A stretch of DNA of 64,000 nt from NCBI GenBank assembly GCA_016176335.1, contig JACOXI010000003.1:258477-322476 (forward strand), read 5' to 3'. This stretch comes from Candidatus Daviesbacteria bacterium. Lineage in GTDB: Bacteria; Patescibacteriota; Microgenomatia; Daviesbacterales; UBA10151. The position numbers were made by a program, and so were the translations under genes. Every line of letters starts with the position of its first letter. Within the stretch, counting starts at the first letter, position 1. The notes under the pieces were generated by a model. The model was not told where the DNA came from. It worked only from the letters and a program-made list of their open reading frames with translations, and did not search any database. Positions 8,769-63,915 of the stretch are shown one piece after another.

Positions 8769-8816
8769 CAATTAATTTTCCACTTGCCAAAATAGGTAAT
8801 TTGTGGTTTAATAATA

Positions 8817-8936
8817 ATGCATCAAGAGTGCCGCCTAAAAGGCGAGCCGGCAACCGAAAAGTTAACGGTGCCAAAGATGATGTGCCCTGCTACATAAGCG
8901 AGGAAAACTTAATCCTCTCTTATGAGAGGTTTTTTT
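8817..8936 (+). promoter_or_regulatory. SAM riboswitch (SAM-I/SAM-IV clan, SAM-IV-like core) with intrinsic terminator, 5' of metK
   Basis: …GCAUCAAGAGUGCCGCC-uaaaa-GGCGAGCCGGCAACC…CGGUGCCaaagAUGAUGUGC… matches the S-box/SAM-IV conserved strings (AUCAAGAG, GAGUGCC, CCGGCAACC, GGUGCC, P1 closing GAUGAUG). A terminator hairpin CCTCTCttatGAGAGG plus T7 follows at 8914–8936. It lies directly upstream of metK. Confidence 0.55.
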
Positions 8937-8944
8937 AAAAAAAT

Positions 8945-10057
8945 ATGGCAAAAAACAGTACTACTACTTTTACATCAGAATCTGTTTGTGCTGGTCATCC
9001 GGATAAAATTTGTGACCAAATTTCCGATGCCATTTTGGATGAAGTATTAAAACAAGATTCGCATGGTCGAACAGCGATTGAATGTTTGGCCGCCAGTAAT
9101 AGATTAATTATTGCAGGAGAAGTGGGCGCTCGGGCAAAAGTAGATTTTAAAAAAATCGCCCGAGAACAAATAAAAAGACTTGGTTACACAAATAGCAAAT
9201 TTAATTTTTCGGACAAGTCTCCAATAGATGTATACGTACACGAACAATCTCTGGAAATTTCGGTGGGAGTGAAACGTAAAGGTGCCGGGGATCAGGGAAT
9301 GATGTTTGGTTTTGCTTGTAAAGAAACAGCTGTGTTAATGCCTTTGCCGATTATGATTGCACATGTACTAACCAGAAAAATGGATCAGGTTCGGGAAGAA
9401 AATATAGTTGATTATCTTCGCCCGGATGGTAAATCTCAAGTAACGATAGAATATAAAAATGGCAAGCCTGTAAAAATTATACAAGTTGTTATAGCAATAC
9501 CACACAAAGAATCCGTAGCACTAGATTACGTCAAAGATGATGTTTACAGAGTAATAGTGACACCGGTATTGGAAACCTTTGGATTTAAAATGAAAAAGGA
9601 CAAGCTGATTGTGAACGGTACAGGTATTTGGCATAACGGCGGCCCTGCATCAGATTGCGGTTTAACCGGTAGAAAAATTGTGGTTGACACATATGGAGGT
9701 TATGCCAGAGTTGGTGGAGGTTGTTTTTCCGGTAAAGAACCCTCAAAGGTAGATAGGGGTGGTGCATATGCGGCAAGATTCTTGGCCAAAAATGTGGTGG
9801 CACATGGTTTGGCGGAAAAGGCGGAGGTCAGACTGGCTTATTTTATTGGGGCTAAAAAGCCTACCATGGAGGATATAGAAACTTTTGGGACTGCAAAAAA
9901 GTCTCACAAAGTAATCCTTTCTTTTATGAATAAAATTTTAGATACATCTGTTGAAGGAATTTTAAAAGGATTGGATTTGCAAAGACCAATTTATTTACCA
10001 ACTGCCGCGTACGGTCACTTCGGCCGTGAAGAATTCCCCTGGGAAAAAGTAGTCTAA
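8945..10057 (+). CDS. metK: S-adenosylmethionine synthetase
   Basis: GHPDKICDQISDAILD, GAGDQGMMFGFA and the full MetK length. Confidence 0.9.
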   Translation: MAKNSTTTFTSESVCAGHPDKICDQISDAILDEVLKQDSHGRTAIECLAASNRLIIAGEVGARAKVDFKKIAREQIKRLGYTNSKFNFSDKSPIDVYVHEQSLEISVGVKRKGAGDQGMMFGFACKETAVLMPLPIMIAHVLTRKMDQVREENIVDYLRPDGKSQVTIEYKNGKPVKIIQVVIAIPHKESVALDYVKDDVYRVIVTPVLETFGFKMKKDKLIVNGTGIWHNGGPASDCGLTGRKIVVDTYGGYARVGGGCFSGKEPSKVDRGGAYAARFLAKNVVAHGLAEKAEVRLAYFIGAKKPTMEDIETFGTAKKSHKVILSFMNKILDTSVEGILKGLDLQRPIYLPTAAYGHFGREEFPWEKVV

Positions 10058-12385: not shown

Positions 12386-13063
12386 ATGCCCAGAGTAACT
12401 GCCGTAGAACCTCAAACTCTTCGACTACGCTTGGGGCCTAATCGGAGATTTAATATATTTTTAGATGGAGAATTTGCTTTTGGAGCAGATGAGGATTTGG
12501 TGGTGGAATGGAGATTGATCCCCGGTAAAGTACTTGACACACCCGATGTGGAAAGATTGTTATTTGAGGCAGAGGTAGGGAAACTGATGGAAAGGATGTA
12601 CCGACTTTTTAATATCAGACAAAGAAGCGAAAAAGAGGTTAAAGACTATTTGAGGAATTTGTCTTTTAAAAGGAAAGTTAAAGGTCAAGAGGAAATTTCA
12701 GAAGCAGCTATTGCACTTTTAATTAATAAATTAAAACAAAAGGGTCTTCTGTCTGATGAACAATTTGCTAAAGCTTGGGTGCAGTCACGAAGAAAAACTA
12801 AAAATAAAGGAAAAATCGCACTTAAAGCTGAATTGTATCAAAAAGGAATTAATCGAGATTTAATTGAAGAAGTACTTGAGGAAGAATCCACACCAGAATC
12901 TGAAAAGCAGTTAGCTCAACAAGCCTTAATGAAAAAAATGAAGACTTGGAAAAGCTTACCGTTGTTGAAATTTAAGAAAAAATCCTACGAGTTTTTATTA
13001 AGAAGAGGTTTTGAATATGAAGTTGTTCGGGAAGTTATTGAAAATTATCTTAACAAGAGGTAA
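12386..13063 (+). CDS. recX: recombination regulator RecX
   Basis: Immediately downstream of recA, 225 aa, with a three-repeat helical architecture and RecX-like N-terminus (…LRLRLGPNRRFNIFLDGEFAF…). Confidence 0.75.
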   Translation: MPRVTAVEPQTLRLRLGPNRRFNIFLDGEFAFGADEDLVVEWRLIPGKVLDTPDVERLLFEAEVGKLMERMYRLFNIRQRSEKEVKDYLRNLSFKRKVKGQEEISEAAIALLINKLKQKGLLSDEQFAKAWVQSRRKTKNKGKIALKAELYQKGINRDLIEEVLEEESTPESEKQLAQQALMKKMKTWKSLPLLKFKKKSYEFLLRRGFEYEVVREVIENYLNKR

Positions 13064-13179
13064 AATACTAATACTTGGAGTATAGAGGTAAATTCTGATA
13101 TGGGTACCAAGATTTTTCAAAAACTTGCAAACTTTATCAGCCGATAATTTCGGTTCCTCTGCTATTCTCCCAAAATTGT

Positions 13180-14502
13180 ATGCAAAGATCATTTGGTCCA
13201 ATTACATCAAATCAACAAAGTTCTAATTCTACAGAACTTGCCAAACGAGAGGGAATTTTAGAGGAAAGAGAAAGACAAATATCACAAAAGAGTAAAATTT
13301 TAGATGAAAAGTTAGACCAAGTTGAAAAAACCAGAAAAGACTTGGTAGAAAAGCTGGAAAAAGCCTCCAGGCTATCCAAAGATGAAGCTGGCAAGATATT
13401 ATTGGAACAGGTAGAAAAAGATCTATCTGTTGAGATTTCCAAAAAAATTAAAGAAGCGGAAGAAGAAATAAAGCTGGCATCAGATGAGAAGTCAAAGGAG
13501 ATTTTGGCTGATGCTATGAGGCATGGATTTACAGATGTGATTTCCGAATTTACAACCTCAAGGGTTAATCTTCCTGATGAAGAAGTTAAGGGGCGGATTA
13601 TCGGCAAAGAAGGAAGGAATATCAGAACTTTTGAACAAGCAACCGGGGTAGATGTGATTATGGATGATGAAACTCCCAATAGTTTGATAATTTCATCATT
13701 TGACTCTGTCAGGCGTGAAATTGCCAAAGTTGCTTTAGAGAAACTTTTGGCTGATGGAAGAATTCAACCACAAAGAATTGAGGAGATAGTTGCCAAAACC
13801 AAAGAGGATTTTGAAAAAATTATGTTACAAGCAGGGGAAAAACTTTGTACAGATGCCGGAGTTTATAATTTACCCACTGATTTGGTAAAACTTTTGGGAA
13901 GATTTAAATATAGATTTTCTTTCGGGCAAAATTTGATCCAACATACATTGGAGGAAACAAGAATTGGGGTGGTTTTGGCAAAAGAAATTGGAGCAGATGC
14001 AAACATTGTTCGTTTGGGCTGTTTGCTGCATGATATTGGAAAAGTAGCAACAGAGGGAGATGAGGGGACTCATGTTGAAAAAGGAGTGCAAGTTGCCAAA
14101 AAATTCCAAATGCCGGAGGCAGTTGTCAATTGTATTGCGGAACATCATGAAGATAAACCATTCTCCTCCATTGAGTCGGTGTTGGTCTATATCGCGGACG
14201 CAATATCCGGCGGAAGGCCGGGAGCAAGACACGAAAATGTTGAGGATTATATAAAAAGGATGGGGGATCTGGAAAAAATTGCCACCTCGTATGAAGGGGT
14301 TGATAAAGCTTTTGCACTGCAAGCAGGTCGTGAAGTTAGAGTTATAGTTATGCCGGATAGAATATCCGATGATGAATTACCAAAATTGGTACACGATATA
14401 GCAACAAGAATTTCTCAAGAAGTTATGGTTCCTGGGGCAGTCAAAATTACAGCAATCAGAGAAACCAGAATAACGGAAACTACAATGACGACTCCGCAGT
14501 GA
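13180..14502 (+). CDS. rny: ribonuclease Y (KH + HD domains; N-terminal transmembrane anchor apparently absent)
   Basis: KH motif GRIIGKEGRNIRTFE, HD motif LLHDIGK…HH, C-terminal …VIRETR. Aligns to B. subtilis RNase Y from about residue 80 onward. The upstream in-frame sequence lacks a hydrophobic helix. Confidence 0.85.
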   Translation: MQRSFGPITSNQQSSNSTELAKREGILEERERQISQKSKILDEKLDQVEKTRKDLVEKLEKASRLSKDEAGKILLEQVEKDLSVEISKKIKEAEEEIKLASDEKSKEILADAMRHGFTDVISEFTTSRVNLPDEEVKGRIIGKEGRNIRTFEQATGVDVIMDDETPNSLIISSFDSVRREIAKVALEKLLADGRIQPQRIEEIVAKTKEDFEKIMLQAGEKLCTDAGVYNLPTDLVKLLGRFKYRFSFGQNLIQHTLEETRIGVVLAKEIGADANIVRLGCLLHDIGKVATEGDEGTHVEKGVQVAKKFQMPEAVVNCIAEHHEDKPFSSIESVLVYIADAISGGRPGARHENVEDYIKRMGDLEKIATSYEGVDKAFALQAGREVRVIVMPDRISDDELPKLVHDIATRISQEVMVPGAVKITAIRETRITETTMTTPQ

Positions 14503-38151: not shown

Positions 38152-38280
38152 AACTTTAAATCTTAAAACTTTTTAAAGATTTTACCTTTAAGATGTAGAT
38201 TTGACCCATTCGGCTTCGTTCAGGGTCATCCTGAGCATTGTCGAAGGATGACATCTAAGATATAAGATTTGAGATTGTTA
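38119..38280. repeat. composite element: heptamer tandem-repeat arrays in inverted orientation flanking a GC-rich palindromic core (38203–38255)
   Basis: Left: TCTCAAA ACTCAAA TCGCAAA TCTCAAA ACTAAAA CTTTAAA TCTTAAA, encoding the aspS C-terminus …SQNSNRKSQN*. Core: GACCCATTCGGCTTCGTTCAGGGTCATCCTGAGCATTGTCGAAGGATGACATC. Right: CTAAGATATAAGATTTGAGATTG, the reverse complement of CAATCTCAAATCTTATATCTTAG. Confidence 0.5.
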
Positions 38281-41988: not shown

Positions 41989-42546
41989 TTAATCTGTTTT
42001 TCCGCTTAGGAGAGCATCAATTATATCGTGAGGTAGCGCCGCCGCATTTAGCAGAGCTTTTCTGACTAAACTGCCTGCTTCTGATCCAATTTCATCAGCT
42101 GCTTTAAGAATTCCCATGACAGCACTTTTTGCCAGTTCCCCTGAATCTGCCCCAATATCACCGGCTGCTTGAATAGCTCCCTCAACAGAAGAGATAGCTA
42201 CTCCCCCAATATCTCCACCGACCTTGGAGGTGGTTTTTACAGCTTGTGATGCAGCCTCACCTGCTGCTTCGGTTGCGTTTACTCCAGTATCTTTTGCTCC
42301 ATCCACCACACCTCTGACTAAACCTGTGACTCCATCTGTTAAGGAGGCCCCTGTTCCGGATATAGTTTCCAAACCTTCACCTACAACCTGGTCAATTGTT
42401 TGAAGGCCGGTGCTTGCCACATCTCCTGCTCCAGAAATAAGCTTGACAACGTTTTCCCGAGCTACATTTTGTACAGTTGAGGCCACATCACCTGCACCGG
42501 AGACAACTGAAGAAAGAGCATTTTTAAAATCGTCGGTTACAGACAT
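41989..42546 (-). CDS. hypothetical Ala/Gly/Val/Asp-rich repetitive protein
   Basis: 185 aa of low complexity with internal repeats (…ISGAGDVAST… twice; GxxAxxAxxD periodicity). Family not assignable. Confidence 0.4.
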   Translation of the reverse strand: MSVTDDFKNALSSVVSGAGDVASTVQNVARENVVKLISGAGDVASTGLQTIDQVVGEGLETISGTGASLTDGVTGLVRGVVDGAKDTGVNATEAAGEAASQAVKTTSKVGGDIGGVAISSVEGAIQAAGDIGADSGELAKSAVMGILKAADEIGSEAGSLVRKALLNAAALPHDIIDALLSGKTD

Positions 42547-42633
42547 TAAATTTAGAGTAACATTAGTAATTTATTTAGTCAATACCCCGTATTAGCTATG
42601 GGTATTATAAATTGATATAATCATCCCGCATAT

Positions 42634-42704
42634 TGCGGGATGGTGAAATGGTATCACAACTGGCTCTGAACCAGTTATTCTAGGTTCAAATCCTAGTCCC
42701 GCAG
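42634..42704 (+). tRNA. tRNA-Gln (anticodon CTG)
   Basis: Hand-folded: acceptor TGCGGGA/TCCCGCA (U1:A72, typical of bacterial tRNA-Gln), D-stem GTGA/TCAC, anticodon stem ACTGG/CCAGT with loop CT-CTG-AA, T-arm CTAGG-TTCAAAT-CCTAG, discriminator G. A -10 TATAAT lies 7 nt upstream. Confidence 0.8.
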
Positions 42705-42815
42705 CCCTTCGACTTCGTCCCAATAAATTGGGACTTCGCTCAGGGCTATAGCCTTTTACTTTCATAAAGTAGAAGTCGAAGGCCCTGAGTGAGCGTAGCG
42801 AATCGAAGGGCTATA
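42705..42815. repeat. GC-rich long imperfect palindrome immediately 3' of tRNA-Gln (intergenic GC-repeat family)
   Basis: GCCCTTCGACTTCG…CGCTCAGGGC…GCCCTGAGTGAGCGTAGCGAATCGAAGGGC has arms pairing over about 30 nt. It shares the words CTCAGGG, GTCGAAGG, CCTGAG and GAGCGTAG with the elements at 38203–38255 and 63849–63915. Confidence 0.5.
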
Positions 42816-42823
42816 ATAATATC

Positions 42824-43096
42824 ATGCCCTATGTAGTTTATATTCTTAGAACCTCTTCCAGCACTCTCTATATTGGTCAAACTAATAACCTGGAAAAAAG
42901 ATTAAAAGAACATCAAAGCAAATCCTCAAGATCAGCCAAATATATAAAATACTTTCAGTCTTCTACCTTAGTATATTCAGAAACATACAATTCTAGAACT
43001 GAAGCCATTACAAGAGAATGGCAGTTAAAAAGATGGACAAAAGCAAAAAAAGAAGCGTTGATCAAAGGCGATACAAACTTATTGAAAAAGTTATAA
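42824..43096 (+). CDS. small stand-alone GIY-YIG nuclease (YhbQ/UPF0213-like)
   Basis: MPYVVYILRTSSSTLYIGQTNNLEKRLKEH…YSE.Y.SRTEAITREWQLKRWTKAKK is the GIY-YIG core (YV.YIL…LYIG.T.NL..RL.EH, R…E…K). 90 aa. Confidence 0.7.
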   Translation: MPYVVYILRTSSSTLYIGQTNNLEKRLKEHQSKSSRSAKYIKYFQSSTLVYSETYNSRTEAITREWQLKRWTKAKKEALIKGDTNLLKKL

Positions 43097-43144
43097 AATA
43101 CAGCCAAGACGGGCATCCTAAACAATCGAGGTGTCTTTAATGCT

Positions 43145-44626
43145 ATGCCAAAAATAAAATCATCGGAGCAACAACTATCGCGAGAATCATTAAATGAGTT
43201 AAAACTCCTGATTGAAAAAAAAGGATGGAGTCTCGTACCAATCCATCTCGAGGATGATTTTGGGGCTGACGGGCAAGTAGAACTTTTTGTCCGAAAGAAA
43301 AAAGATTACGAATATAGTCCTTATTCTTTCAAGTTTCAGTTGAAATCGACAACTTCTGGTAAAAATACAGAAGATTTTAGTCTTATTGATTTGAAGACAT
43401 GGTGTCATAGTCCCATTCCTTTCTTTCTGTTTTTTTGGAATAAAGCTGAAAATAAATTTTACTGGATAAACCTACATGAATTTTGTAACAATTTAGAATT
43501 AACCAGCCCAGAAAAATTCGAGCAGACTTATTTAAAAATTAACTTTGAGAACGAGCTAAACGTGGATAGTTTTAACCTTATTGAGATGAACACAAGAAAC
43601 CTTTGCAAAATGGCGGCGAGGGCAATTAATGATAACGTAGGTAAACAAGTTGCCGTTGGGGATCTTGCTAAACAGGGAGAACCAATCATAGCTCTCGGCT
43701 ATTCTTTTAAAAAAGCTGATCTTTCAAAAATGGATATGAGGAAGGCAATTATGATGGGTATTGATTTTAATAATGCTGATCTTTCTCATGCAGATATGAG
43801 ATCAGGTGCATTTATGGGAGCAAATTTTAAAGGCGCTAATTTAGATGGAGCAGATCTTCGAAGTTGTAGTTTTATGGGCGCGTTTCTTGAAAAAGCTAAA
43901 TTAAGAACAGTAAAACTGCAGGGAGCGGCTTTTATGGGAGCGTTTGTGGAGGGAGCAGATTTTTCAGGAGCTGAATGGGATGATATTTCCCTATGGTCAA
44001 TAAGCAAATCCTATGATTTCGAAAAGGCCATATTTGATGAAGGTATTTTAGGTAAAATTGTTAAACTGGGCAAAATAAACAATCTTGCTGTTAATAATTT
44101 ATCTGTTGTAAATAATAAACAAGATATTTCTGTTATAGACAAATGGATTGCAGTTAAAACTGAAAACGAACAGGGCGCTGATTATCGGTCGGTTCCGCTT
44201 GAGGGTAAACCGTTAAATAAAATTACCTTTAGGATTAAACCCATGTCGCCTTTTTGGAGAGCAGGTTTGAAAATTGTTGATCCCAACGGCTCATTCCTAC
44301 CATTAAGAAGCGTGAATAGTATTCTTTTCCATTTGGGATCTACAGTAACTAATAATTTTTTCGGTATTACCGCGTATGTAAATGGTGAATTAGTAGGAGC
44401 TGTTAATAAATCCTTGAAATATGACCCCCTTCAATCAATAATAATTAGTTTCGAGGTTAACCAAAATAACTTCGTTAAGTTTTTTGTGAATGGATCTGTC
44501 GAATTTGAACCGAACGAGAGAATAAACCCTCGTCTATTAAAAAAGGCTTGTCTAGTTGCATGGGGTGATATTAATGACTACAAGGTTGGATTTGATGAGA
44601 TAAAATTTTTACCGAGAGCGGCATAG
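43145..44626 (+). CDS. three-domain protein: DUF4365-like PD-(D/E)xK nuclease N-domain, pentapeptide-repeat tract, C-terminal beta-sandwich domain
   Basis: The N-domain (…WSLVPIHLEDDFGADGQVELFV…FKFQLKSTTSGK…WCHSPIPFFLFFWNKAENKFYWINL) fits the D…E.K / 'QVKST' pattern of DUF4365 restriction-endonuclease-fold domains. Residues 190–280 form about 18 tandem pentapeptides (ADLSKMDMRKAIMMGIDFNNADLSHADMRSGAFMGANFKGANLDGADLRSCSFMGAFLEKAKL…). The C-terminal 200 aa is beta-rich (…FRIKPMSPFWRAGLKIVDPNGSF…GITAYVNGELVGAVN…FFVNGSVEFEPNE…). Confidence 0.6.
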   Translation: MPKIKSSEQQLSRESLNELKLLIEKKGWSLVPIHLEDDFGADGQVELFVRKKKDYEYSPYSFKFQLKSTTSGKNTEDFSLIDLKTWCHSPIPFFLFFWNKAENKFYWINLHEFCNNLELTSPEKFEQTYLKINFENELNVDSFNLIEMNTRNLCKMAARAINDNVGKQVAVGDLAKQGEPIIALGYSFKKADLSKMDMRKAIMMGIDFNNADLSHADMRSGAFMGANFKGANLDGADLRSCSFMGAFLEKAKLRTVKLQGAAFMGAFVEGADFSGAEWDDISLWSISKSYDFEKAIFDEGILGKIVKLGKINNLAVNNLSVVNNKQDISVIDKWIAVKTENEQGADYRSVPLEGKPLNKITFRIKPMSPFWRAGLKIVDPNGSFLPLRSVNSILFHLGSTVTNNFFGITAYVNGELVGAVNKSLKYDPLQSIIISFEVNQNNFVKFFVNGSVEFEPNERINPRLLKKACLVAWGDINDYKVGFDEIKFLPRAA

Positions 44627-44686
44627 AACATAGTAAATGAGTCATAAGGATAGAAGGGTTCGAAACCGATACGTTCAGCTTTTAAA

Positions 44687-44782
44687 ATGATTAAACTTGT
44701 TGCTTTTGATTGGAACGGAACTATTTTTGCAGATACTCATGCAATTTTCGAGAGTGAAATAGGGATTATGCGCAAGATGTAG
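44687..44782 (+). pseudogene. N-terminal remnant (31 codons) of a HAD-superfamily hydrolase gene
   Basis: ATG…MIKLVAFDWNGTIFADTHAIFESEIGIMRKM* carries HAD motif I (FDWNGT) but stops after 31 codons. No continuation in any frame. Confidence 0.45.
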
Positions 44783-44817
44783 TTGAACTATAGGGTGATT
44801 GGTGATATACTACAAAA

Positions 44818-45597
44818 ATGGGAAAAGAAGAAGAACGTATTGCCTATCTCCGACAAACTCCTATGGAGATTGGAACAATTCAAGCACGATATAGAACGGC
44901 GCTTGAAGTTGCACAGAGATTATTAGGAGATAAGACTTCTCTTTGGTTAGATATTGGATCCAATCTTGGATTTGGATTACAGGAGTTATGTCCATCTATA
45001 AACAGAGTGATAGCAGTTGATATAGACCCTGAATATATCCAGCTAGCATCAGAAAGAAATCCTCAGGTAAGAGGAGTAGCAATGGACGGTTGCCAACTTG
45101 GTTTTCCTAATGAGCGTTTTGATTTAGTAAGTTTATTTGAAGTGATTGAGCACACGGGAGAAGTACAGCAAAGAAATTTACTTGCGGAAGCAAACAGAAT
45201 TCTCAAACCTGAAGGGATACTCCTTCTGTCTACCCCAAATAAAGACGCTCATGGTAGAAGACAAATGGGTATTGATCACGAAAGAGAACTAAGACCTCAA
45301 GAACTTAAACAGCTGTTAGCAGAAGGAGGATTTATTATTCAGGATACCTTTGGACAAATATTTTTAAATGGCAGCTTATTTCACGATATACTTCAGAATG
45401 TAAGAGTAAACCCTTTAGCTACTTTTATATATTATCAACTTATTCCGTTTTCTTTAAGAAGGGGTATAAGCGATTTTACTCTTTCTTCTCAAAGTCCATT
45501 ACAGGTAAGAAGCCCCAAACCATACGAGATACCAAGAATAATGTTTGTTGTTTGTCAAAAAAACTTCAACAGTTCGTTTGAAGACTACACTACATAA
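44818..45597 (+). CDS. class I SAM-dependent methyltransferase (Methyltransf_11/23-like)
   Basis: Motif I LDIGSNLGFG, post-I acidic VIAVDID, motif III-like region. GC-richer than neighbours. The 3' end overlaps the ribD stop by about 13 nt (convergent). Confidence 0.65.
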   Translation: MGKEEERIAYLRQTPMEIGTIQARYRTALEVAQRLLGDKTSLWLDIGSNLGFGLQELCPSINRVIAVDIDPEYIQLASERNPQVRGVAMDGCQLGFPNERFDLVSLFEVIEHTGEVQQRNLLAEANRILKPEGILLLSTPNKDAHGRRQMGIDHERELRPQELKQLLAEGGFIIQDTFGQIFLNGSLFHDILQNVRVNPLATFIYYQLIPFSLRRGISDFTLSSQSPLQVRSPKPYEIPRIMFVVCQKNFNSSFEDYTT

Positions 45598-46592
45598 CCT
45601 ATGGTTAAAAGGTTATCATCAAATCTTTTGTATGAAAGATTTTTTAAATGTATGGATTGTGAGATAGTTTGAACTCCTTGTCCAGCTATGGCACTGATGG
45701 CCTTTTTTCCACCAACAAGGATAGGAGCATGAAAGGCATATACTTTATCAACCACTTTGGCATCCACAAAACTTCCCAAAACACTTCCTCCTCCCTCCAC
45801 CAAAATACTGATTATTTCTTTTTCCCTCAAGACTGATAAAAGATCATGGATTTTTTTAGCTTTTATAATTAAGACATTTTGATCCCGCAAAACTTGGGCA
45901 TCATCTGGAATTTGCACTCTTTGGCCCAGGATGATCCGTAGCGGGTCTTTTTTCCCTTTCATCCTCACACCTAAATGGGGATTATCTTTTAAAACTGTAT
46001 TTATTCCCACCAAAACTGCCTGATACTGCCCCCGCAAACTTCTGGCATATTTCCTTGCCTTTTCATTGGTAATCCATTTTGATTCACCGGTTCTGGTGGC
46101 AATTTTACCATCCAAGGAGGCTGCAAATTTTAGGGCAATAAAAGGACGCTTTTTCTCATGAAATGTAAAAAATGCTTCATTTAAGGTTCGTGCCTCACTC
46201 TCTAACACTCCTACTAAAACTTCAATCCCTGCTTTTTGCAATTTAGCTAAGCCAAAACTTCGGACCTTTGGGTTTGGATCCAGTGTCGCACAAACCACTC
46301 TGGTTATTCCCGCTTGGATGATGGTATCAACGCAGGGTGGTGTTTTGCCAAAATGGGAGCAGGGTTCCAGATTAACATATAATGTTGCTCCTTTTGGATT
46401 TTCTTTACACTTTTGCAGTGCCTCAATTTCCGCGTGTGGCAGACCAAATACTTTATGATAACCTTTTCCGATCATCCTGCCGCCCTTTACAATAAGGGCT
46501 CCAACCATAGGATTAGGATATGTCCAGCTCACCCCTTTTTTGGCAAGTTTTAATGTTTCATTAATGAAAAATTCATCTTGGGTATAAGTCAT
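45585..46592 (-). CDS. ribD: bifunctional riboflavin biosynthesis deaminase/reductase RibD
   Basis: CMP/dCMP deaminase zinc motif HAEIEAL…PCSHFGKTPPC and a C-terminal RibD reductase domain. Confidence 0.9.
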   Translation of the reverse strand: MTYTQDEFFINETLKLAKKGVSWTYPNPMVGALIVKGGRMIGKGYHKVFGLPHAEIEALQKCKENPKGATLYVNLEPCSHFGKTPPCVDTIIQAGITRVVCATLDPNPKVRSFGLAKLQKAGIEVLVGVLESEARTLNEAFFTFHEKKRPFIALKFAASLDGKIATRTGESKWITNEKARKYARSLRGQYQAVLVGINTVLKDNPHLGVRMKGKKDPLRIILGQRVQIPDDAQVLRDQNVLIIKAKKIHDLLSVLREKEIISILVEGGGSVLGSFVDAKVVDKVYAFHAPILVGGKKAISAIAGQGVQTISQSIHLKNLSYKRFDDNLLTIGYVV

Positions 46593-48847: not shown

Positions 48848-49075
48848 AAAAAATCCCCTTTCGGGGATACAATAAACACCAATTGGTGTATTTTTCTTTC
48901 TTTCATCCCGACTGTACCCTTCGATACTTCGACTTCGCTCAGTACTCAGGGTTCTTCACTTTGTGAAGAACGGTCGGCTTTGGACTTTCACCAAATCATC
49001 CATATACCGTTTCTGGTATGTGGTCGTGGGCTATACCACCGATTTTGACTTACACAAAACCCCGAAAGAACAGCT
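48848..49075 (-). promoter_or_regulatory. FMN riboswitch (RFN element) with terminator/SD-sequestering expression platform, 5' of the rib operon
   Basis: The minus strand reads …UCUUUCGGGGuuuuGUG.AA.UC…AUCGGUGGUauAGCCCaCGAcc…GGAUgauuugGUGAAAGUCCAAAGCCGACCGU…AAAGU…GAAGGGUACAGUCGGGAUGAAAGAAAG. This matches RFN conserved blocks (CGGGG, ACCGG.GGU, AGCCCGCGA, AAGCCGACAGU.AAAGU, GGAUG.AAGA). It is followed by AUCCCCgaaaGGGGAU plus U6 directly abutting the ribE ATG; the 3' half-stem GGGGA is the likely SD. Confidence 0.7.
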
Positions 49076-61372: not shown

Positions 61373-62809
61373 ATGAGTGCAAATATGTTTGATTTAATTA
61401 TTATTGGTGGTGGAGCAGGCGCTTTTGCTGCTGCCATTAAGGCTAATGAACTCGGAGCAAAAACTTTATTAGTTAACAAAGGACTGCCTCTTGGTGGGAC
61501 CTGTGTTAATGTTGGTTGTGTTCCATCTAAAACTCTCCTTTGGGCCGGCGAGGTGATGCATCTTGCCAGAAACCACAAGATTCCGGGAATAGATATAGAG
61601 GTTAAAAGGTTTGATTTTGCCCAAATTGTCCAACACGAGCTTGATTTAGTAGAAAAGTTAAGAGCTGAAAAATATGAAAAAATTTTAAATGGTTTAGAGA
61701 GTGTTACTTATCTAGAAGGACAAGCGACTTTTGTTTCTCCTTATGAGATCGAAGTTAATCCTTCGACAGAGCTCAGGACAGGTGGTCAAAAGTATCAGGC
61801 TAAGAAATTCATTATCGCTGCTGGATCAACTGCAACAGTACCACCAATTGATGGGATTAAGGAAGTAGGATACTTAACTCACATTGAGGCTCTACAGATT
61901 AAACAGCAACCAAAGAAACTAATCGTAGTAGGTGCTGGTCCTTTAGGACTGGAGTTTGCCCAAATGTTTGCCAGGTTTGGTACTAAAGTAACAATATTAC
62001 ATAGAGGACAATCCATTTTCCGTGGTGAAGAAGAATTAACAACTAGACTTGCTGAAATACTCACTGAAGAAGGAATAACTATTAAAACTAATGTCCAAAT
62101 AAAAAGTGTCAGAAAAGATGGAGAGAAAAAGGTTTTAGTATACAAAGAAGCAGACTTGTCCGCCGAAGCCTTGGTAAAGGCGGATGAAATACTACTAGCT
62201 GCAGGTAAAACTCCCAATACCCAAGGAATGGGTCTTGATAAAGCTGAAGTTGGGATGGATGAGAAACAAACGATTAAAGTCAACTCCTACTTTCAAACTT
62301 CTCAATCGCATATTTATGCTATAGGTGATGTGACGGATAGCCCGCTAAGACTTGAGCCAACTGCAGGGAGGGAGGGTACACTAGCTTCAGAAAACGCCTT
62401 AAATAATGCCAAAAATAACATTGACTATAATACTGTGCCCTGGACTATCTTCACTGATCCGCAACTTGCAGGAGTAGGACTTACAGAAGAGCAGGAGATG
62501 GAGCAAATAGGAAGATGTTTATGTCGGACTGTTTCTTTTGCCAACGTACCTAAAGCCATAATAATGAATCGTACGGAAGGTTTAATCAAGATGGTTGTCC
62601 ACCCGGATACAAAAGTGATCCTGGGCGTTCATATACTGGCTCCAAATGCAGGAGAGTTAATTGCTCAAGCAATGGTACTTGTCAAGAACAAAAATACCAT
62701 TGATGATGTTATCAATTCTTTACCAATGTTTCCAACTCTTTCAGAAAGTATAAAAACCGTTGCGTTGTCTTTTACTAGAGATATAAGTAAACTAAGTTGT
62801 TGTATATAA
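61373..62809 (+). CDS. merA: mercuric reductase-like flavoprotein disulfide oxidoreductase (no N-terminal HMA domain)
   Basis: FAD motif IIGGGAGAFAAA, redox-active GGTCVNVGCVPSK, NAD motif and a C-terminal vicinal Cys pair …KLSCCI* (MerA ends …KQLSCCAG). Confidence 0.7.
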   Translation: MSANMFDLIIIGGGAGAFAAAIKANELGAKTLLVNKGLPLGGTCVNVGCVPSKTLLWAGEVMHLARNHKIPGIDIEVKRFDFAQIVQHELDLVEKLRAEKYEKILNGLESVTYLEGQATFVSPYEIEVNPSTELRTGGQKYQAKKFIIAAGSTATVPPIDGIKEVGYLTHIEALQIKQQPKKLIVVGAGPLGLEFAQMFARFGTKVTILHRGQSIFRGEEELTTRLAEILTEEGITIKTNVQIKSVRKDGEKKVLVYKEADLSAEALVKADEILLAAGKTPNTQGMGLDKAEVGMDEKQTIKVNSYFQTSQSHIYAIGDVTDSPLRLEPTAGREGTLASENALNNAKNNIDYNTVPWTIFTDPQLAGVGLTEEQEMEQIGRCLCRTVSFANVPKAIIMNRTEGLIKMVVHPDTKVILGVHILAPNAGELIAQAMVLVKNKNTIDDVINSLPMFPTLSESIKTVALSFTRDISKLSCCI

Positions 62810-62810
62810 A

Positions 62811-63848
62811 ATGGATCTTTGGTTAATTTTCCTGACCGGTTTAACTGTAGGGGGGTTGACCTGTATGGTAGTACAGGGGGGGCTTTTGGCCGGGGTTTTG
62901 GCGGCAAAAGAAGAAGAGGATTTTACAGAAGGCAGTCAAAGAAAACACAACGTACTACCGGTTTTGGCATTTTTGATAGCTAAACTTATTGCGTATGTAA
63001 CTTTAGGTTTTATACTGGGTACTTTTGGTTCAACGCTGGCCATTTCCGATAATACCCGGATTGTCATGCAACTTATTGCAGGGGCGTATATGATAGCCAT
63101 AGCTTTGGATCTTTTGAATGTTCACCCGATTTTTAGATATGTTGTGATCCAGCCTCCTAAATTTTTAACCAGAATGATTAAGGATACCTCGAAAAGCCGC
63201 GATTTATTTGCCCCGGCAATTTTAGGATTTTTGACTGTTTTTATCCCCTGCGGTACTACTTTGGCCATGGAAGTTTTTGCCATATCTTCCGGCAGCGCAA
63301 TTTGGGGGGCTTTGATTATGGGTACATTTACTTTGGGAACCTCACCTTTGTTTTTGGGATTGGGGTTTATTACAACTGTGTTGGGTGATACTTTCAGGAC
63401 GCGATTTTTCAAGTTGGCCGGGGTTTTGGTTGCGTACCTTGGGATCACTACCTTCAATGGAGCGCTGGTTTTGGCTGGATCGCCAATTACTTTGCAAACA
63501 ATCAGAGATATGATCCCCATTCAAATTGATCTTTCCGGTGGAGCGCAGGCAGCTTCAGATTCTAATGTGCAAGTTTTGGCAGGAGTACAAACTGCAAACA
63601 TTTTGGTTTACCCGACAGGTTATAGCCCAAACTACATACAGATTAGATCAGGAATTCCCGTGAGGTTTAATTTGGCTACAACCGGGGGTTTTGGTTGTAC
63701 ATCCCAGTTTCGGATTCCCCAACTTGGGCTTAGCAAAAATTTAACTCAAAATAGTATAACTTCTGTAGAGTTTACGCCGCAGACTAAAGGTAAGATTGTC
63801 TGGACTTGCTCAATGGGTATGTATTCGGGAATAATGAAGGTGATATGA
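62811..63848 (+). CDS. DsbD_2-like 6-TM domain fused to a C-terminal cupredoxin-like Cys/Met domain
   Basis: TM1 …GGLTCMVVQGG… and TM4 …VFIPCGTTLAM…, each with a single Cys. C-terminal 100 aa …GGFGCTSQF…VWTCSMGMYSGIMKV* resembles cupredoxin/TRASH-like metal sites. Confidence 0.45.
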   Translation: MDLWLIFLTGLTVGGLTCMVVQGGLLAGVLAAKEEEDFTEGSQRKHNVLPVLAFLIAKLIAYVTLGFILGTFGSTLAISDNTRIVMQLIAGAYMIAIALDLLNVHPIFRYVVIQPPKFLTRMIKDTSKSRDLFAPAILGFLTVFIPCGTTLAMEVFAISSGSAIWGALIMGTFTLGTSPLFLGLGFITTVLGDTFRTRFFKLAGVLVAYLGITTFNGALVLAGSPITLQTIRDMIPIQIDLSGGAQAASDSNVQVLAGVQTANILVYPTGYSPNYIQIRSGIPVRFNLATTGGFGCTSQFRIPQLGLSKNLTQNSITSVEFTPQTKGKIVWTCSMGMYSGIMKVI

Positions 63849-63915
63849 GCGAAGCGAGTATCATCCCTTCGGGTCTGAGCCTCAGGGTCGAAGACCTGAG
63901 CGTAGTCGAAGGATC
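63849..63915. repeat. GC-rich nested-palindrome repeat (intergenic GC-repeat family)
   Basis: GAGCGAAGCGAGTATCATCCCTTCGGGTCTGAGCCTCAGGGTCGAAGACCTGAGCGTAGTCGAAGGATC. Its core TCAGGGTC-n-CCTGAGC-RTWGTCGAAGGAT is shared with 38203–38255; the words are shared with 42705–42815. Confidence 0.5.

What the first reader, a model, noticed from the sequence alone, without database searches (positions are those of the whole stretch)
42634..45597. Candidate defence/accessory islet inserted immediately 3' of tRNA-Gln, between housekeeping blocks
A tRNA 3' end is a classic integration hotspot. Here tRNA-Gln is followed by (i) a 110-bp GC-rich palindromic element, (ii) a stand-alone YhbQ-like GIY-YIG nuclease, (iii) a 493-aa protein fusing a DUF4365-like PD-(D/E)xK nuclease fold to pentapeptide repeats and a beta-sandwich, (iv) a 31-codon N-terminal stump of a HAD hydrolase gene, which looks like an insertion or deletion scar, and (v) a GC-richer SAM-dependent methyltransferase whose 3' end runs into the convergent ribD gene. 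Two nuclease folds plus a methyltransferase in a small insert flanked by intact housekeeping genes (gltX upstream, the rib operon downstream) is the typical footprint of a compact anti-mobile-element system. I do not recognise this combination as a described system.
Basis: partly seen in the sequence, partly recalled or inferred. Interest (0 to 1): 0.8.

Follow-up and report, generated by a model that had tools for sequence, protein, structure and literature searches.

The report
Mosaic accessory islet beside tRNA-Gln
The stretch after tRNA-Gln in this Daviesbacteria (CPR) genome is a real variable gene slot, but its three genes arrived separately: a selfish GIY-YIG element, a likely single-gene anti-phage nuclease with an undescribed sensor-like domain, and an ordinary methyltransferase cassette.

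Summary
Related Daviesbacteria keep gltX, tRNA-Gln and the rib operon, but the tRNA-Gln-to-ribD interval ranges from about 0.85 kb (near-empty) to about 6.5 kb with unrelated cargo. It is a genuine plasticity zone, with no integrase.

The "nuclease + nuclease + methyltransferase system" reading fails. The interval is a mosaic of three independent units.

1. A 394-bp GC-rich palindrome plus GIY-YIG unit is inserted exactly at the tRNA-Gln CCA end, flanked by CAGCC repeats. A homologous site (L098) lacks it.
2. A 493-aa protein has three domains: a DUF4365 PD-(D/E)xK nuclease (the SPARDA effector fold, with QxK conserved), a pentapeptide beta-helix, and a ConA/lectin-fold C-terminal domain.
3. 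An 811-bp class-I SAM methyltransferase cassette replaced the body of a HAD gene. It is 92% identical in nucleotides to a copy in an unrelated context.

The C-terminal domain has no Pfam model. Elsewhere it is fused to TIR, DUF4062, PIN, HEPN and HNH domains, to a kinase or cyclase, or to transmembrane modules, which is a conflict-system signature. Homologues of the 493-aa protein sit beside SIR2 genes, a restriction-modification system and PADLOC defence-candidate genes, or directly 3' of tRNAs.

Most likely the 493-aa protein is a single-gene abortive-infection nuclease; this is inferred, not shown. The recurrent order of homing-endonuclease gene, tRNA and nuclease gene is unexplained.

The parts
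42633..42707 (+). tRNA-Gln (anticodon CUG). It is the conserved anchor of the variable interval. Its encoded CCA end is interrupted: the sequence reads GCAGCC|C instead of the GCAGCCA seen in relatives.
   Evidence: ARAGORN; Rfam RF00005, 67.1 bits; comparison of the 3' ends with L020, L027, L037 and L098.
42702..42706 (+). Left copy of the 5-nt direct repeat CAGCC that flanks the 394-bp palindrome + GIY-YIG insertion. The right copy is at 43101-43105.
   Evidence: Direct reading. The uninterrupted sequence GCAGCCA-AGACGGGCACCC is seen in L037 and L098.
42703..42815 (.). GC-rich nested palindrome, a member of a dispersed REP/MITE-like repeat family. Its right end carries a TATAAT-like hexamer (my reading) a few nt upstream of the GIY-YIG ATG.
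   Evidence: Inverted repeats. Fold -60.3 kcal/mol, z -8.05. The family pattern matches 5 times against 0.01 expected. A GC-rich palindrome lies immediately 5' of the GIY-YIG genes in L005, L011, L037 and L027 (17624-17935) as well; the second L027 copy (12969-13223) has only a degenerate, imperfect version (my reading).
42824..43096 (+). Stand-alone 90-aa GIY-YIG (YhbQ/Slx1-like) nuclease gene, interpreted as the protein of a selfish element associated with tRNA genes.
   Evidence: PF01541 E 2.1e-16. dN/dS 0.11 against the L027 copy. GIY-YIG genes abut tRNA genes in L005-L010, L011, L027 and L037.
43101..43144 (+). Right CAGCC repeat plus the displaced tRNA-Gln 3' trailer (A-AGACGGGCATCC...). 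The trailer runs 38 nt up to the ATG of the 493-aa gene, the same spacing as in L098.
43145..44626 (+). 493-aa three-domain protein. DUF4365 PD-(D/E)xK nuclease (aa 1-165, nt 43145-43639; D38, D42-G43 and Q65-x-K67 are invariant). Pentapeptide beta-helix (aa about 181-300, nt 43685-44044). Disordered linker (aa 312-327). ConA/lectin-fold C-terminal domain (aa 328-493, nt 44126-44623). It is a candidate single-gene abortive-infection or defence nuclease.
44683..44782 (+). Remnant of a HAD-family phosphatase gene. 23 homologous codons (44683-44755) are followed by unrelated sequence and a stop at 44780-44782.
   Evidence: tblastn and blastn against full-length HAD genes in L014, L021 and L046. 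Weak NCBIfam hit to the YcsE-related riboflavin-metabolism phosphatase, E 0.058.
44779..45589 (+). 811-bp methyltransferase cassette: a promoter-like TTGAAC-17-TATACT at 44783-44811 plus the class-I SAM methyltransferase ORF at 44818-45597. The last codons of the ORF read into the 3' end of ribD.
   Evidence: 92% nucleotide identity to L097 5985-6794 in an unrelated context. Pfam and NCBIfam. Promoter-like site (consensus match only). dN/dS 0.26.
45585..46592 (-). ribD, the conserved right-hand boundary. Homology with relatives resumes at 45591-45594.
   Evidence: Pfam RibD_C and deaminase; blastn against relatives.

Best explanation
The interval between tRNA-Gln and ribD is a lineage-specific plasticity zone in Daviesbacteria. 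In this genome it holds three independently acquired units, not one system.

(a) A 394-bp selfish unit, made of a REP-like GC-rich palindrome and a small GIY-YIG nuclease gene, was inserted exactly at the CCA end of tRNA-Gln. It is flanked by a CAGCC duplication. It pushed the tRNA's original trailer and the downstream gene 399 bp away.

(b) The gene that originally followed the tRNA encodes a 493-aa single-polypeptide sensor-effector protein. The inferred mechanism is as follows. The C-terminal ConA/lectin-fold domain, perhaps together with the pentapeptide beta-helix, recognises an invader-derived cue. This releases or oligomerises the N-terminal DUF4365 nuclease, which then degrades DNA non-specifically. 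The result would be abortive infection or plasmid loss, as DUF4365 does in SPARDA.

(c) An 811-bp promoter-plus-methyltransferase cassette encoding a generic class-I SAM methyltransferase replaced about 590 bp of a HAD phosphatase gene that is convergent with ribD in relatives.

Shown: the anatomy, the insertion junctions, the variable synteny, the independent distributions, the domain folds, the conserved catalytic motif and purifying selection. Inferred: the defence function, the sensing role of the C-terminal domain, and the homing behaviour of the GIY-YIG unit.
For: Variable slot. Relatives keep pbp-hyp347-gltX-hyp114-tRNA-Gln and ribD-ribBA-ribH-ribE-rpiB-rpe. Between them, L020 has only a cupin and a 99-aa ORF, and L037 has one Mrr_cat gene. 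L014, L021 and L027 carry 5-6.5 kb of unrelated cargo: His_Phos, Fic, HicAB, UDG, GT4, a racemase and CDF transporters.

Independent units.
- L098 (493-aa homologue, 83% identity) has tRNA-Gln, then GCAGCCA-AGACGGGCACCC, then the ATG 38 nt after the CCA, with no GIY-YIG gene or palindrome. The window has the same trailer after the insert, with CAGCC on both sides.
- The methyltransferase cassette is 92% identical in nucleotides in L097, next to T2SS/pilus genes and a YafQ toxin-antitoxin pair.
- HAD homology stops at 44755 and resumes at the ribD stop.

The 493-aa protein.
- DUF4365 scores above the Pfam cut-off.
- Q65-x-K67 and D42 are invariant in the family. They correspond to the Q62/K64 pair that PMC10810196 proposes from alignment as the DUF4365 active site and mutates to make its inactive TmuRE control.
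- The model has alpha-beta-beta-beta-alpha-beta topology.
- The C-terminal domain has pLDDT 93.9 and a lectin/SPRY-type fold.
- The C-terminal-domain family has 230 clusters. Among the top 150, partners include DUF4062 x8, CAP12/Pycsar TIR x7, TIR_2 x3, SEFIR, PIN_8, HEPN_Swt1, HNH_3, EAD11, cyclase x2 and a kinase. There are also about 21 transmembrane forms, 9 proteins sharing the N-terminal domain of PADLOC candidate PDC-S60, and 6 sharing PDC-S35.
- Homologues lie 4 nt downstream of a SIR2_2 gene (L003/L004), or in an island with SIR2_2, PDC-S18 and a type IIG restriction-modification gene (L012).
- dN/dS is 0.15-0.20.

Against: - There is no experimental evidence for defence by any DUF4365-pentapeptide or C-terminal-domain protein.
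- The 493-aa protein has only weak N-terminal PADLOC hits (E about 1e-4 to 1e-5) and no hit for the C-terminal domain.
- Short homologues (P0009, P0013) sit alone among housekeeping genes.
- Only about 8 independent genomic contexts could be examined.
- GIY-YIG (or an HNH-like ORF in L098) shares a tRNA with the DUF4365-pentapeptide gene in every tRNA-linked case. Full independence of (a) and (b) is therefore not proven.
- The 5-nt CAGCC repeat could be chance microhomology.
- The ligand of the C-terminal domain is unknown, and a lectin fold could equally mean a non-immune binding role.
Confidence: 0.6

Rival explanations
1. First reader's view. GIY-YIG, the 493-aa protein and the methyltransferase form one compact anti-mobile-element system with restriction-modification logic: two nucleases restrained by a modification methyltransferase.
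For: The genes are adjacent and co-directional. There are two nuclease folds and a SAM methyltransferase. PADLOC gives a mad2-like hit for the methyltransferase, E 8e-13, over the SAM-binding region only. Identical trios occur in L001 and L002, but those are the same strain.
Against: The trio was not found in any fetched locus outside the window's own strain, including relatives L014-L047, at tblastn E 1e-4. Each gene occurs without the others: L098, L013 and L003 for the 493-aa gene; L097 for the methyltransferase; L027 for GIY-YIG. Discrete junctions separate the three units. The methyltransferase has no DNA-methyltransferase family hit; its best matches are UbiG, BioC and DVU1556-type families, all below their cut-offs.
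Confidence: 0.05
2. Composite mobile module. The homing-type endonuclease gene (GIY-YIG or HNH), the tRNA gene and the nuclease gene immediately 3' of it travel together. The endonuclease cuts tRNA genes of naive genomes, and repair co-converts the tRNA allele and the adjacent cargo. This would make tRNA flanks the entry point for defence genes in integrase-poor CPR genomes.
For: - The order GIY-YIG, then tRNA, then DUF4365-pentapeptide gene recurs with three different tRNAs: Gln, Ser-CGA and Ser-GGA. The proteins are only about 43% identical. The ORF starts 14-38 nt after the CCA end.
- L037 has GIY-YIG, tRNA-Gln and Mrr_cat; L098 has an HNH-like ORF, tRNA-Gln and the 492-aa gene.
- Partial 5' tRNA duplications lie upstream of GIY-YIG in 4 independent cases; the largest is 57 nt at 98% identity, E 1e-27.
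- In loci not selected through the short homologues, only 3 of 21 tRNAs have a GIY-YIG neighbour, all at the orthologous tRNA-Gln.
- tRNA-Gln alleles track GIY-YIG presence, not gltX or RibD similarity: the window matches L037 at 60/71 but L014 at 43/71.
- Precedent: T4 SegB, a GIY-YIG enzyme, recognises the tRNA T-psi-C motif and drives inheritance of flanking tRNA genes (PMC2330249).
Against: - In the window the GIY-YIG unit is clearly a later, separate insertion between the tRNA and the 493-aa gene.
- DUF4365-pentapeptide genes also occur with no tRNA or GIY-YIG nearby, in L003, L012 and L013.
- Numbers are small and the loci were not sampled at random.
- No cleavage data exist.
Confidence: 0.2
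3. The 493-aa protein is not an immune protein. It could be a selfish or addictive toxin, or an inter-bacterial conflict nuclease. It could also be a DNA-metabolism factor in which the pentapeptide domain acts as a Qnr/MfpA-like DNA mimic.
For: The pentapeptide region resembles MfpA/Qnr folds. Toxin-antitoxin genes (HicAB, Fic, YafQ) share these variable slots. Short homologues stand alone among housekeeping genes.
Against: Qnr and MfpA NCBIfam scores are 25-33 bits against cut-offs of 240-500. There is no signal peptide or secretion-associated neighbour. The gene is absent from the five relatives that retain gltX and tRNA-Gln (L014, L020, L021, L027, L037), so it is not housekeeping. The partner spectrum of the C-terminal domain (TIR, DUF4062, Pycsar-type TIR, SEFIR, EAD11) is characteristic of immunity-type conflict systems.
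Confidence: 0.12

Closest known systems
SPARDA / DUF4365(DREN)-APAZ effector of short prokaryotic Argonautes
   Same: The N-terminal nuclease family is the same (PF14280, above the Pfam cut-off). It has the same Q-x-K active-site motif (Q65/K67 here; Q62/K64 in TmuRE, PMC10810196). There are weak direct sequence hits to solved DUF4365 and DREN-APAZ chains (9qbq E 0.07; 9jsb E 0.54). The expected output is the same: non-specific DNA degradation on activation.
   Different: There is no APAZ domain and no Argonaute partner. The nuclease is instead fused to a pentapeptide beta-helix and a lectin-fold domain. It is a single-gene arrangement, so the trigger cannot be guide-directed target recognition.
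Single-polypeptide effector + variable auxiliary-sensor defences (DUF4062 + AUX: Swarozyc, Evangelion)
   Same: The logic is a conserved toxic effector joined to a swappable C-terminal module without Pfam annotation that determines the trigger. Eight of the top 150 C-terminal-domain-family proteins carry DUF4062 itself.
   Different: The KpSwz AUX domain has an HTH/winged-helix fold, whereas this C-terminal domain is a ConA/lectin-type beta-sandwich. The effector here is a nuclease, not an NADase. Nothing here has been tested experimentally.
Hailong HalA (defence effector described as carrying pentapeptide repeats)
   Different: HalA is a tetrameric ion channel partnered with the nucleotidyltransferase HalB. 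Here the effector is a soluble nuclease and no HalB-like gene is adjacent.
Phage T4 SegB and other free-standing GIY-YIG homing endonucleases
   Same: A small GIY-YIG gene embedded among tRNA genes. SegB recognises a conserved tRNA stem-loop motif and spreads itself together with flanking tRNA genes (PMC2330249). Here GIY-YIG genes abut tRNA genes, their presence is polymorphic, and tRNA alleles are discordant with the flanking genes.
   Different: The gene here is cellular (CPR), not phage. The protein is only 79-97 aa and has no recognisable DNA-binding extension. It is always preceded by a GC-rich palindrome, and often by a partial 5' copy of the tRNA. Cleavage specificity is untested.
REP/RAYT-type palindromic repeat systems and MITEs
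   Same: Short GC-rich palindromes are dispersed in intergenic DNA: 5 family matches in 64 kb. One copy is physically linked to a nuclease gene.
   Different: The linked gene is a GIY-YIG nuclease, not an HUH/tyrosine transposase. The palindromes next to GIY-YIG genes in different genomes share no sequence. Mobilisation in trans is pure inference.
tRNA-anchored genomic islands (integrase-mediated)
   Same: A variable accessory segment begins at the 3' end of a tRNA gene.
   Different: There is no integrase in the interval here or in relatives. No tRNA-derived direct repeat lies at the far boundary. The cargo is a patchwork with separate junctions.

Membership tests
Restriction-modification (or MADS-like) system made of the three genes | A methyltransferase of a DNA-methyltransferase family (N6_Mtase, N6_N4_Mtase, DNA_methylase or MethyltransfD12) | tested here: not met
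   Only generic class-I SAM methyltransferase families were hit (Methyltransf_11, 23, 25, 12 and 31). NCBIfam best hits (DVU1556, UbiG, MftM, BioC) are all far below their cut-offs. The PADLOC mad2 hit covers only the SAM-binding fold.
Restriction-modification (or MADS-like) system made of the three genes | The nuclease and methyltransferase genes are inherited together across genomes | tested here: not met
   The trio is absent from all relatives. The methyltransferase cassette occurs alone in L097. The 493-aa homologues in L098, L013, L003 and L012 have no such methyltransferase or GIY-YIG neighbour.
DUF4365 (PF14280) PD-(D/E)xK nucleases | Profile match above the Pfam gathering score | tested here: met
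   51.1 bits against a cut-off of 24.3, E 2e-13, aa 13-145 on profile positions 2-134 of 139.
DUF4365 (PF14280) PD-(D/E)xK nucleases | Conserved catalytic D ... Q-x-K motif on an alpha-beta-beta-beta-alpha-beta core | tested here: met
   D38, D42, G43, Q65 and K67 are invariant in 11 homologues. In the model, D42 lies at the start of strand 43-51 and Q65/K67 lie in strand 54-69. Q62/K64 are the residues that PMC10810196 proposes as the TmuRE active site and mutates for its inactive control.
DUF4365 (PF14280) PD-(D/E)xK nucleases | Nuclease activity | not testable with these tools
   This needs biochemistry.
SPARDA (short pAgo + DREN-APAZ) | An APAZ domain C-terminal to the nuclease, and an adjacent short Argonaute gene | tested here: not met
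   The residues after the nuclease are a pentapeptide helix and a lectin-fold domain. The neighbours are GIY-YIG, a HAD stump, a methyltransferase and ribD. The PADLOC Aga_REase hit covers only the N-terminal 113 profile positions.
Qnr/MfpA-type pentapeptide topoisomerase protectors | NCBIfam family score above the curated cut-off | tested here: not met
   Scores are 21.7-33 bits against cut-offs of 240-500. Only the generic pentapeptide Pfam families pass.
GIY-YIG superfamily (PF01541) | Profile match above the gathering score | tested here: met
   60.4 bits against a cut-off of 22.6.
Free-standing homing endonuclease | Presence/absence polymorphism at a defined conserved target, with precise junctions | tested here: met
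   In L098, the tRNA-Gln CCA end runs uninterrupted into the same trailer and the homologous 492-aa gene. L037 and L027 show the same uninterrupted CCA-trailer junction, although a different gene follows. The window has a 394-bp insert between CAGCC repeats.
Free-standing homing endonuclease | Site-specific cleavage of the empty allele | not testable with these tools
   This needs an in-vitro cleavage assay.
Integrase-mediated tRNA-anchored genomic island | An integrase or recombinase gene, plus a direct repeat of the tRNA 3' segment at the distal end | tested here: not met
   All ORFs in the interval were identified and none is a recombinase. No tRNA-Gln fragment with E below 0.39 lies between 41600 and 49300. 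No recombinase was found in the island ORFs of relatives that were scanned.
Concanavalin A-like lectin/glucanase fold (C-terminal domain) | Jelly-roll beta-sandwich superposable on lectin, SPRY or GH16 structures | tested here: met
Known anti-phage systems in PADLOC v2.0 | A significant model match for the 493-aa protein | tested here: not met
   Only weak N-terminal hits were found (Aga_REase E 3.7e-5; PDC-M02A E 1.4e-4) and nothing for the C-terminal domain.

The most novel reading that the evidence does not exclude
Two linked novelties are not excluded.

(1) The C-terminal lectin-fold domain may define an undescribed family of invader-sensing modules. It has about 230 clusters and no Pfam or PADLOC model. 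It is plugged onto nuclease, TIR, DUF4062, PIN, HEPN, HNH, kinase, cyclase and membrane effectors. The 493-aa protein would be its nuclease-armed form.

(2) In integrase-poor CPR genomes, small homing-type endonuclease genes (GIY-YIG or HNH) may insert into or next to tRNA genes, regenerate the tRNA through a partial 5' duplication, and drive lateral replacement of the tRNA allele together with the defence gene placed 14-38 nt after its CCA end. That would be a new route for defence-gene mobility.
Probability: 0.2. Interest if true: 0.8.

Novelty: new variant of a known kind. Interest (0 to 1): 0.55.

Why it matters
CPR/Patescibacteria make up a large share of bacterial diversity, yet their immune repertoire and the way they exchange accessory genes are poorly known.

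If the 493-aa protein is a working single-gene defence, it adds a new architecture to the sensor-effector class: a SPARDA-type nuclease, a pentapeptide helix and a lectin-fold sensor. Its C-terminal domain would be a handle for finding a whole family of unannotated immune proteins with at least ten different effector types.

The recurrent order of endonuclease gene, tRNA and nuclease gene, with tRNA pseudo-duplications, would explain how small genomes without integrases turn over genes at tRNA loci, if it proves general.

If none of this holds, the locus remains a well-documented example of an ordinary mosaic plasticity zone, and a caution against reading adjacency as a system.

Tried and rejected
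- Viral-contig scans with the C-terminal-domain (A4) and DUF4365-pentapeptide (A3) alignments found no relatives. The genes are therefore not evidently phage-borne.
- tblastn of the nuclease domain and the C-terminal domain against PLSDB plasmids gave no match.
- The afdb50 fold library was unavailable.
- The promoter/terminator scan was no better than shuffles (11 found against 10.6 expected), so co-transcription with the tRNA cannot be judged.
- The word-indexed homologue search for the methyltransferase found only two close relatives, so its wider family and substrate remain unknown.
- PADLOC scans of unknown neighbours found nothing. These were the L013 196-aa and 170-aa genes, the L094 271-aa gene, the L027 229-aa gene and the L014 331-aa gene.
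- I considered that the palindrome was an att site or a terminator specific to this islet. I rejected this because it belongs to a dispersed family.
- I considered that the C-terminus of the methyltransferase derives from HAD. I rejected this because cassette homology with L097 runs to 45589, and tblastn with the full-length HAD proteins found no significant match beyond the stump.
- I considered an integrase-mediated island and rejected it.

Full report
**Source and observation.** The window comes from a Candidatus Daviesbacteria (CPR/Microgenomates) genome. The 493-aa protein is identical to an NCBI entry of that name.

- tRNA-Gln(CUG) lies at 42633-42707.
- A nested GC-rich palindrome lies at 42703-42815. 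Its fold energy is -60.3 kcal/mol, z = -8.05, and its GC content is 0.478 against 0.384 for the window.
- A 90-aa GIY-YIG ORF lies at 42824-43096 (PF01541, E 2.1e-16).
- A 493-aa ORF lies at 43145-44626, with DUF4365 (E 2e-13, above the Pfam cut-off) and pentapeptide repeats.
- A 31-codon HAD stump lies at 44687-44782.
- A class-I SAM methyltransferase lies at 44818-45597 and overlaps the convergent ribD by 13 nt.

There are two corrections. The methyltransferase is not GC-rich relative to the genome (0.371). The palindrome is one copy of a dispersed repeat family: the pattern CCTGAG-N3-25-TCGAAGG matches 5 times in the window against 0.01 expected.

**Synteny test.** I used RibD to fetch relatives and mapped the window's proteins onto them. 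Daviesbacteria keep two blocks: pbp-hyp347-gltX-hyp114-tRNA-Gln on one side and ribD-ribBA-ribH-ribE-rpiB-rpe on the other. The interval from the 3' end of tRNA-Gln to ribD differs in every genome.
- L020 has about 0.85 kb with a cupin and a 99-aa ORF.
- L037 has about 0.9 kb with a single Mrr_cat gene (PADLOC candidate PDC-M58A).
- L014, L021 and L027 have 5-6.5 kb. The cargo includes His_Phos_1, an unrelated class-I methyltransferase, a 2'-5' RNA ligase, Fic, TauE, UDG, GT4, a racemase, HicAB, CDF transporters and unknown genes.

None of these relatives has the 493-aa gene or this methyltransferase. No recombinase was found in the scanned island ORFs of relatives. No tRNA-derived repeat marks the far boundary of the interval in the window. 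So "inserted islet in a variable slot" is right, but "integrase-type island" is not.

**Three separate units.**

(i) *The HAD scar and the methyltransferase.* Full-length HAD genes of 220-222 aa lie convergent to ribD, overlapping its 3' end, in L014, L021 and L046. The window keeps only their first 23 codons (44683-44755, 84-88% nucleotide identity). Homology to relatives resumes at the ribD stop. The segment in between is an 811-bp cassette (44779-45589) consisting of a promoter-like site and the methyltransferase ORF. This cassette is 92% identical in nucleotides to L097 5985-6794. There it sits between a response-regulator/type II secretion-pilus operon and a YafQ toxin-antitoxin pair.

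The methyltransferase hits only generic small-molecule-type families and no DNA-methyltransferase family.

(ii) *GIY-YIG and the palindrome.* In L037, L027 and L098 the tRNA-Gln ends ...GCAGCCA and is followed directly by AGACGGGCACCC (AGTAGGGCACCC in L027). In L098 a 492-aa homologue (83% identity) starts 38 nt after the CCA end. In the window the same trailer, AAGACGGGCATCC, and the same 38-nt spacing to the ATG are found only after the GIY-YIG stop codon. CAGCC is present on both sides of the intervening 394 bp, at 42702-42706 and 43101-43105. The palindrome plus GIY-YIG unit is therefore a later, discrete insertion between the tRNA and the 493-aa gene.

(iii) *The 493-aa gene.* This is the original first gene of the slot in this sub-lineage.

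All three genes are under purifying selection, with dN/dS of 0.11-0.26.

**The 493-aa protein.** AlphaFold models built with homologue alignments show four regions.
- An alpha-beta-beta-beta-alpha-beta nuclease core spans aa 1-165.
- A right-handed pentapeptide beta-helix spans aa about 181-300.
- A disordered linker spans aa 312-327.
- A 14-strand beta-sandwich spans aa 328-493, with pLDDT 93.9.

D38, D42-G43 and Q65-x-K67 are invariant among 11 homologues. Q-x-K is the pair that PMC10810196 proposes from sequence alignment as the DUF4365 active site. That paper mutates Q62A/K64A to make its inactive TmuRE control. TmuRE is the effector of a short-Argonaute system and degrades DNA non-specifically once activated.

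**The C-terminal domain is a shared module with swappable effectors.** Close relatives of the domain occur behind about 130-aa multi-pass membrane segments (P0010, P0012, P0014-18, P0121-123) and behind an HNH domain (P0124, P0125).

An exhaustive profile search found 230 representative clusters at E <= 1e-3. Pfam and PADLOC scans of the best 150 showed these partners:
- DUF4062 (8 proteins), CAP12/Pycsar-type TIR (7), TIR_2 (3), TIR and SEFIR;
- PIN_8, HEPN_Swt1, Hypoth_Ymh, HNH_3 and EAD11;
- nucleotide cyclase (2), protein kinase and HTH;
- 9 proteins sharing only the N-terminal 175-residue domain of PADLOC candidate PDC-S60;
- 6 proteins sharing the TIR-like part of PDC-S35;
- a 21-member transmembrane group.

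This "one constant domain, many toxic or signalling partners" pattern is the hallmark of conflict systems. DUF4062 has recently been shown to be a TIR-like NADase. Its single-protein defences depend on variable, unannotated C-terminal AUX sensors.

The C-terminal domain itself is not in PADLOC v2. No relatives were found in IMG/VR or PLSDB.

**Genomic company of the homologues.**
- A 70%-identical full-length homologue lies 4 nt downstream of a SIR2_2 gene (L003/L004).
- A shorter DUF4365-pentapeptide protein lies in an island with a related SIR2_2 gene (35% identity to the first), a PDC-S18 gene (E 7.7e-65) and a type IIG restriction-modification gene (L012).
- L013 and L098 (81-83% identity) share an overlapping downstream 170-aa gene of unknown family that is absent from the window.
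- Two short homologues, P0013 and P0009 (about 43% identity), stand among housekeeping genes. Like the window's gene, they lie immediately 3' of a tRNA: Ser-CGA and Ser-GGA, with the ORF starting 14 and 22 nt after the tRNA.

**Mechanism proposed.** The protein most likely acts as a single-polypeptide sensor-effector. The lectin-fold C-terminal domain, and possibly the pentapeptide helix, would bind an invader-derived protein, glycan or nucleic acid. Binding would relieve auto-inhibition or drive oligomerisation, and the DUF4365 nuclease would then cut DNA indiscriminately.

The folds, the motif, the modularity and the contexts are shown. The trigger, the activation step and the protective phenotype are inferred. 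I put 0.6 on the combined statement. That is roughly 0.85 for "a mosaic of independent units" and roughly 0.55 for "the 493-aa protein is a defence nuclease".

**An unexplained regularity.** Small GIY-YIG genes in these CPR loci are tied to tRNA genes. In four independent cases the order is as follows:
1. a partial 5' copy of the tRNA;
2. a GC-rich palindrome that interrupts or follows that copy;
3. the GIY-YIG ATG, 1-20 nt further on;
4. the complete tRNA, 4-8 nt after the GIY-YIG stop in three cases and overlapping the end of the called ORF in L011.

The four cases are L005-L010, L011, L037 and L027. In L005 the duplicate is 57 nt long at 98% identity (E 1e-27); the other duplicates are 10-20 nt. 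In L098 an ORF with an HNH-like motif (my reading; not confirmed by a family search) occupies the same position.

All three independent tRNAs followed by a DUF4365-pentapeptide gene have such a neighbour. Among the 21 tRNAs in loci not selected through the short homologues, only the orthologous tRNA-Gln of L027, L037 and the window does.

tRNA-Gln alleles also disagree with the flanking genes. The window's tRNA matches L037 and L027 at 59-60 of 71 positions, but matches L014 and L020 at only 43-45 of 71, although L014 and L020 are closest by GltX and RibD. It matches L098 at only 48 of 71, despite the 83%-identical downstream protein.

T4 SegB is a GIY-YIG enzyme that recognises a tRNA stem-loop motif and drives inheritance of flanking tRNA genes (PMC2330249). 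It is the nearest precedent. These endonuclease genes may merely share a taste for tRNA loci with the cargo, or they may actually drive cargo turnover there. The data in hand cannot decide, and I give the second reading about 0.2.

**Verdict.** The locus is a true accessory slot, and it contains one gene with good circumstantial credentials as a novel single-gene defence. The proposed three-gene system does not exist as a unit.

Novelty: a new variant of a known kind, namely a sensor-effector abortive-infection protein. It has an undescribed domain combination and an unannotated sensor-like domain family.

Interest: 0.55.

Noticed in passing
window 48891-49073 (minus strand); insertion at about 48910-48968: The FMN riboswitch upstream of ribE carries a 59-nt insertion in a terminal hairpin loop where the Rfam model has 5 nt. 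The insertion contains the same CTTCGACTTCGCTCAG / CCTGAG...TCGAAGG motif as the palindrome after tRNA-Gln. The motif sits just upstream of ribE in relatives L014, L016, L017, L020, L031 and L033 too, so this riboswitch-embedded repeat is old.
   Followed up: partly
window 38203-38255, 42703-42815, 48910-48968, about 61760-61777, 63845-63915: A dispersed family of GC-rich palindromic (REP/MITE-like) repeats. The pattern CCTGAG-N3-25-TCGAAGG has 5 matches against 0.01 expected by shuffling. Only one copy is next to a GIY-YIG gene. Whether GIY-YIG mobilises the solo copies is unknown.
   Followed up: partly
L005 7380-8120; L011 7500-8020; L037 11800-12420 (minus); L027 17500-18020 (minus): A repeated anatomy: a partial 5' copy of a tRNA, a GC-rich palindrome, a GIY-YIG ORF and then the complete tRNA. 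It was seen four times independently, at tRNA-Ser(CGA), tRNA-Ser(GGA) and tRNA-Gln (twice). In three cases the palindrome splits the pseudo-tRNA in its D-arm region. I found no description of this arrangement in the paper searches I ran.
   Followed up: partly
window 42633-42707 compared with L014, L020, L021, L027, L037 and L098: tRNA-Gln alleles fall into types that track the presence of a GIY-YIG neighbour rather than the similarity of the flanking gltX and ribD genes. The window matches L037 at 60/71, L027 at 59/71, L014 at 43/71 and L020 at 45/71. This suggests lateral replacement of the tRNA gene. In addition, the GIY-YIG insertion removed the final A of the encoded CCA in the window's tRNA-Gln.
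   Followed up: partly
window 41989-42546 (minus strand): A 185-aa Ala/Gly/Val-rich ORF (GC 0.47, no Pfam family) lies between the conserved hyp114 gene and tRNA-Gln. It has no counterpart in relatives. The 5' side of tRNA-Gln is therefore variable too: relatives have GIY-YIG (L027, L037) or an HNH-like ORF (L098) there.
   Followed up: no
L013 3177-3689 and L098 1887-2006: The two closest homologues of the 493-aa gene (81-83% identity) are followed by an overlapping 170-aa gene with no Pfam or PADLOC match. My reading of its N-terminus is a ubiquitin-like beta-grasp. This gene is missing from the window and could be a lost partner.
   Followed up: partly
L003 3124-4143; L004 195-1214; L012 90-1148 (minus): SIR2_2 proteins of 339-352 aa, 35% identical to each other, accompany DUF4365-pentapeptide genes in two different lineages. 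They are only weakly similar to known defence SIR2 families (PADLOC E 1e-5 to 7e-9). This may be a two-gene SIR2 + nuclease variant.
   Followed up: partly
L094 7214-8828; L095 7162-8817: HNH + C-terminal-domain proteins (P0124, P0125) are each preceded by a conserved-size unknown gene of 263-271 aa, overlapping in L094. The L095 context has a resolvase, HTH_17 and DUF5681, which looks like a mobile element.
   Followed up: no
window 8814-8920 (plus strand): A SAM-I/IV riboswitch match just above the gathering score (42.3 bits against 41.1) lies upstream of the ORF at 8945-10057.
   Followed up: no
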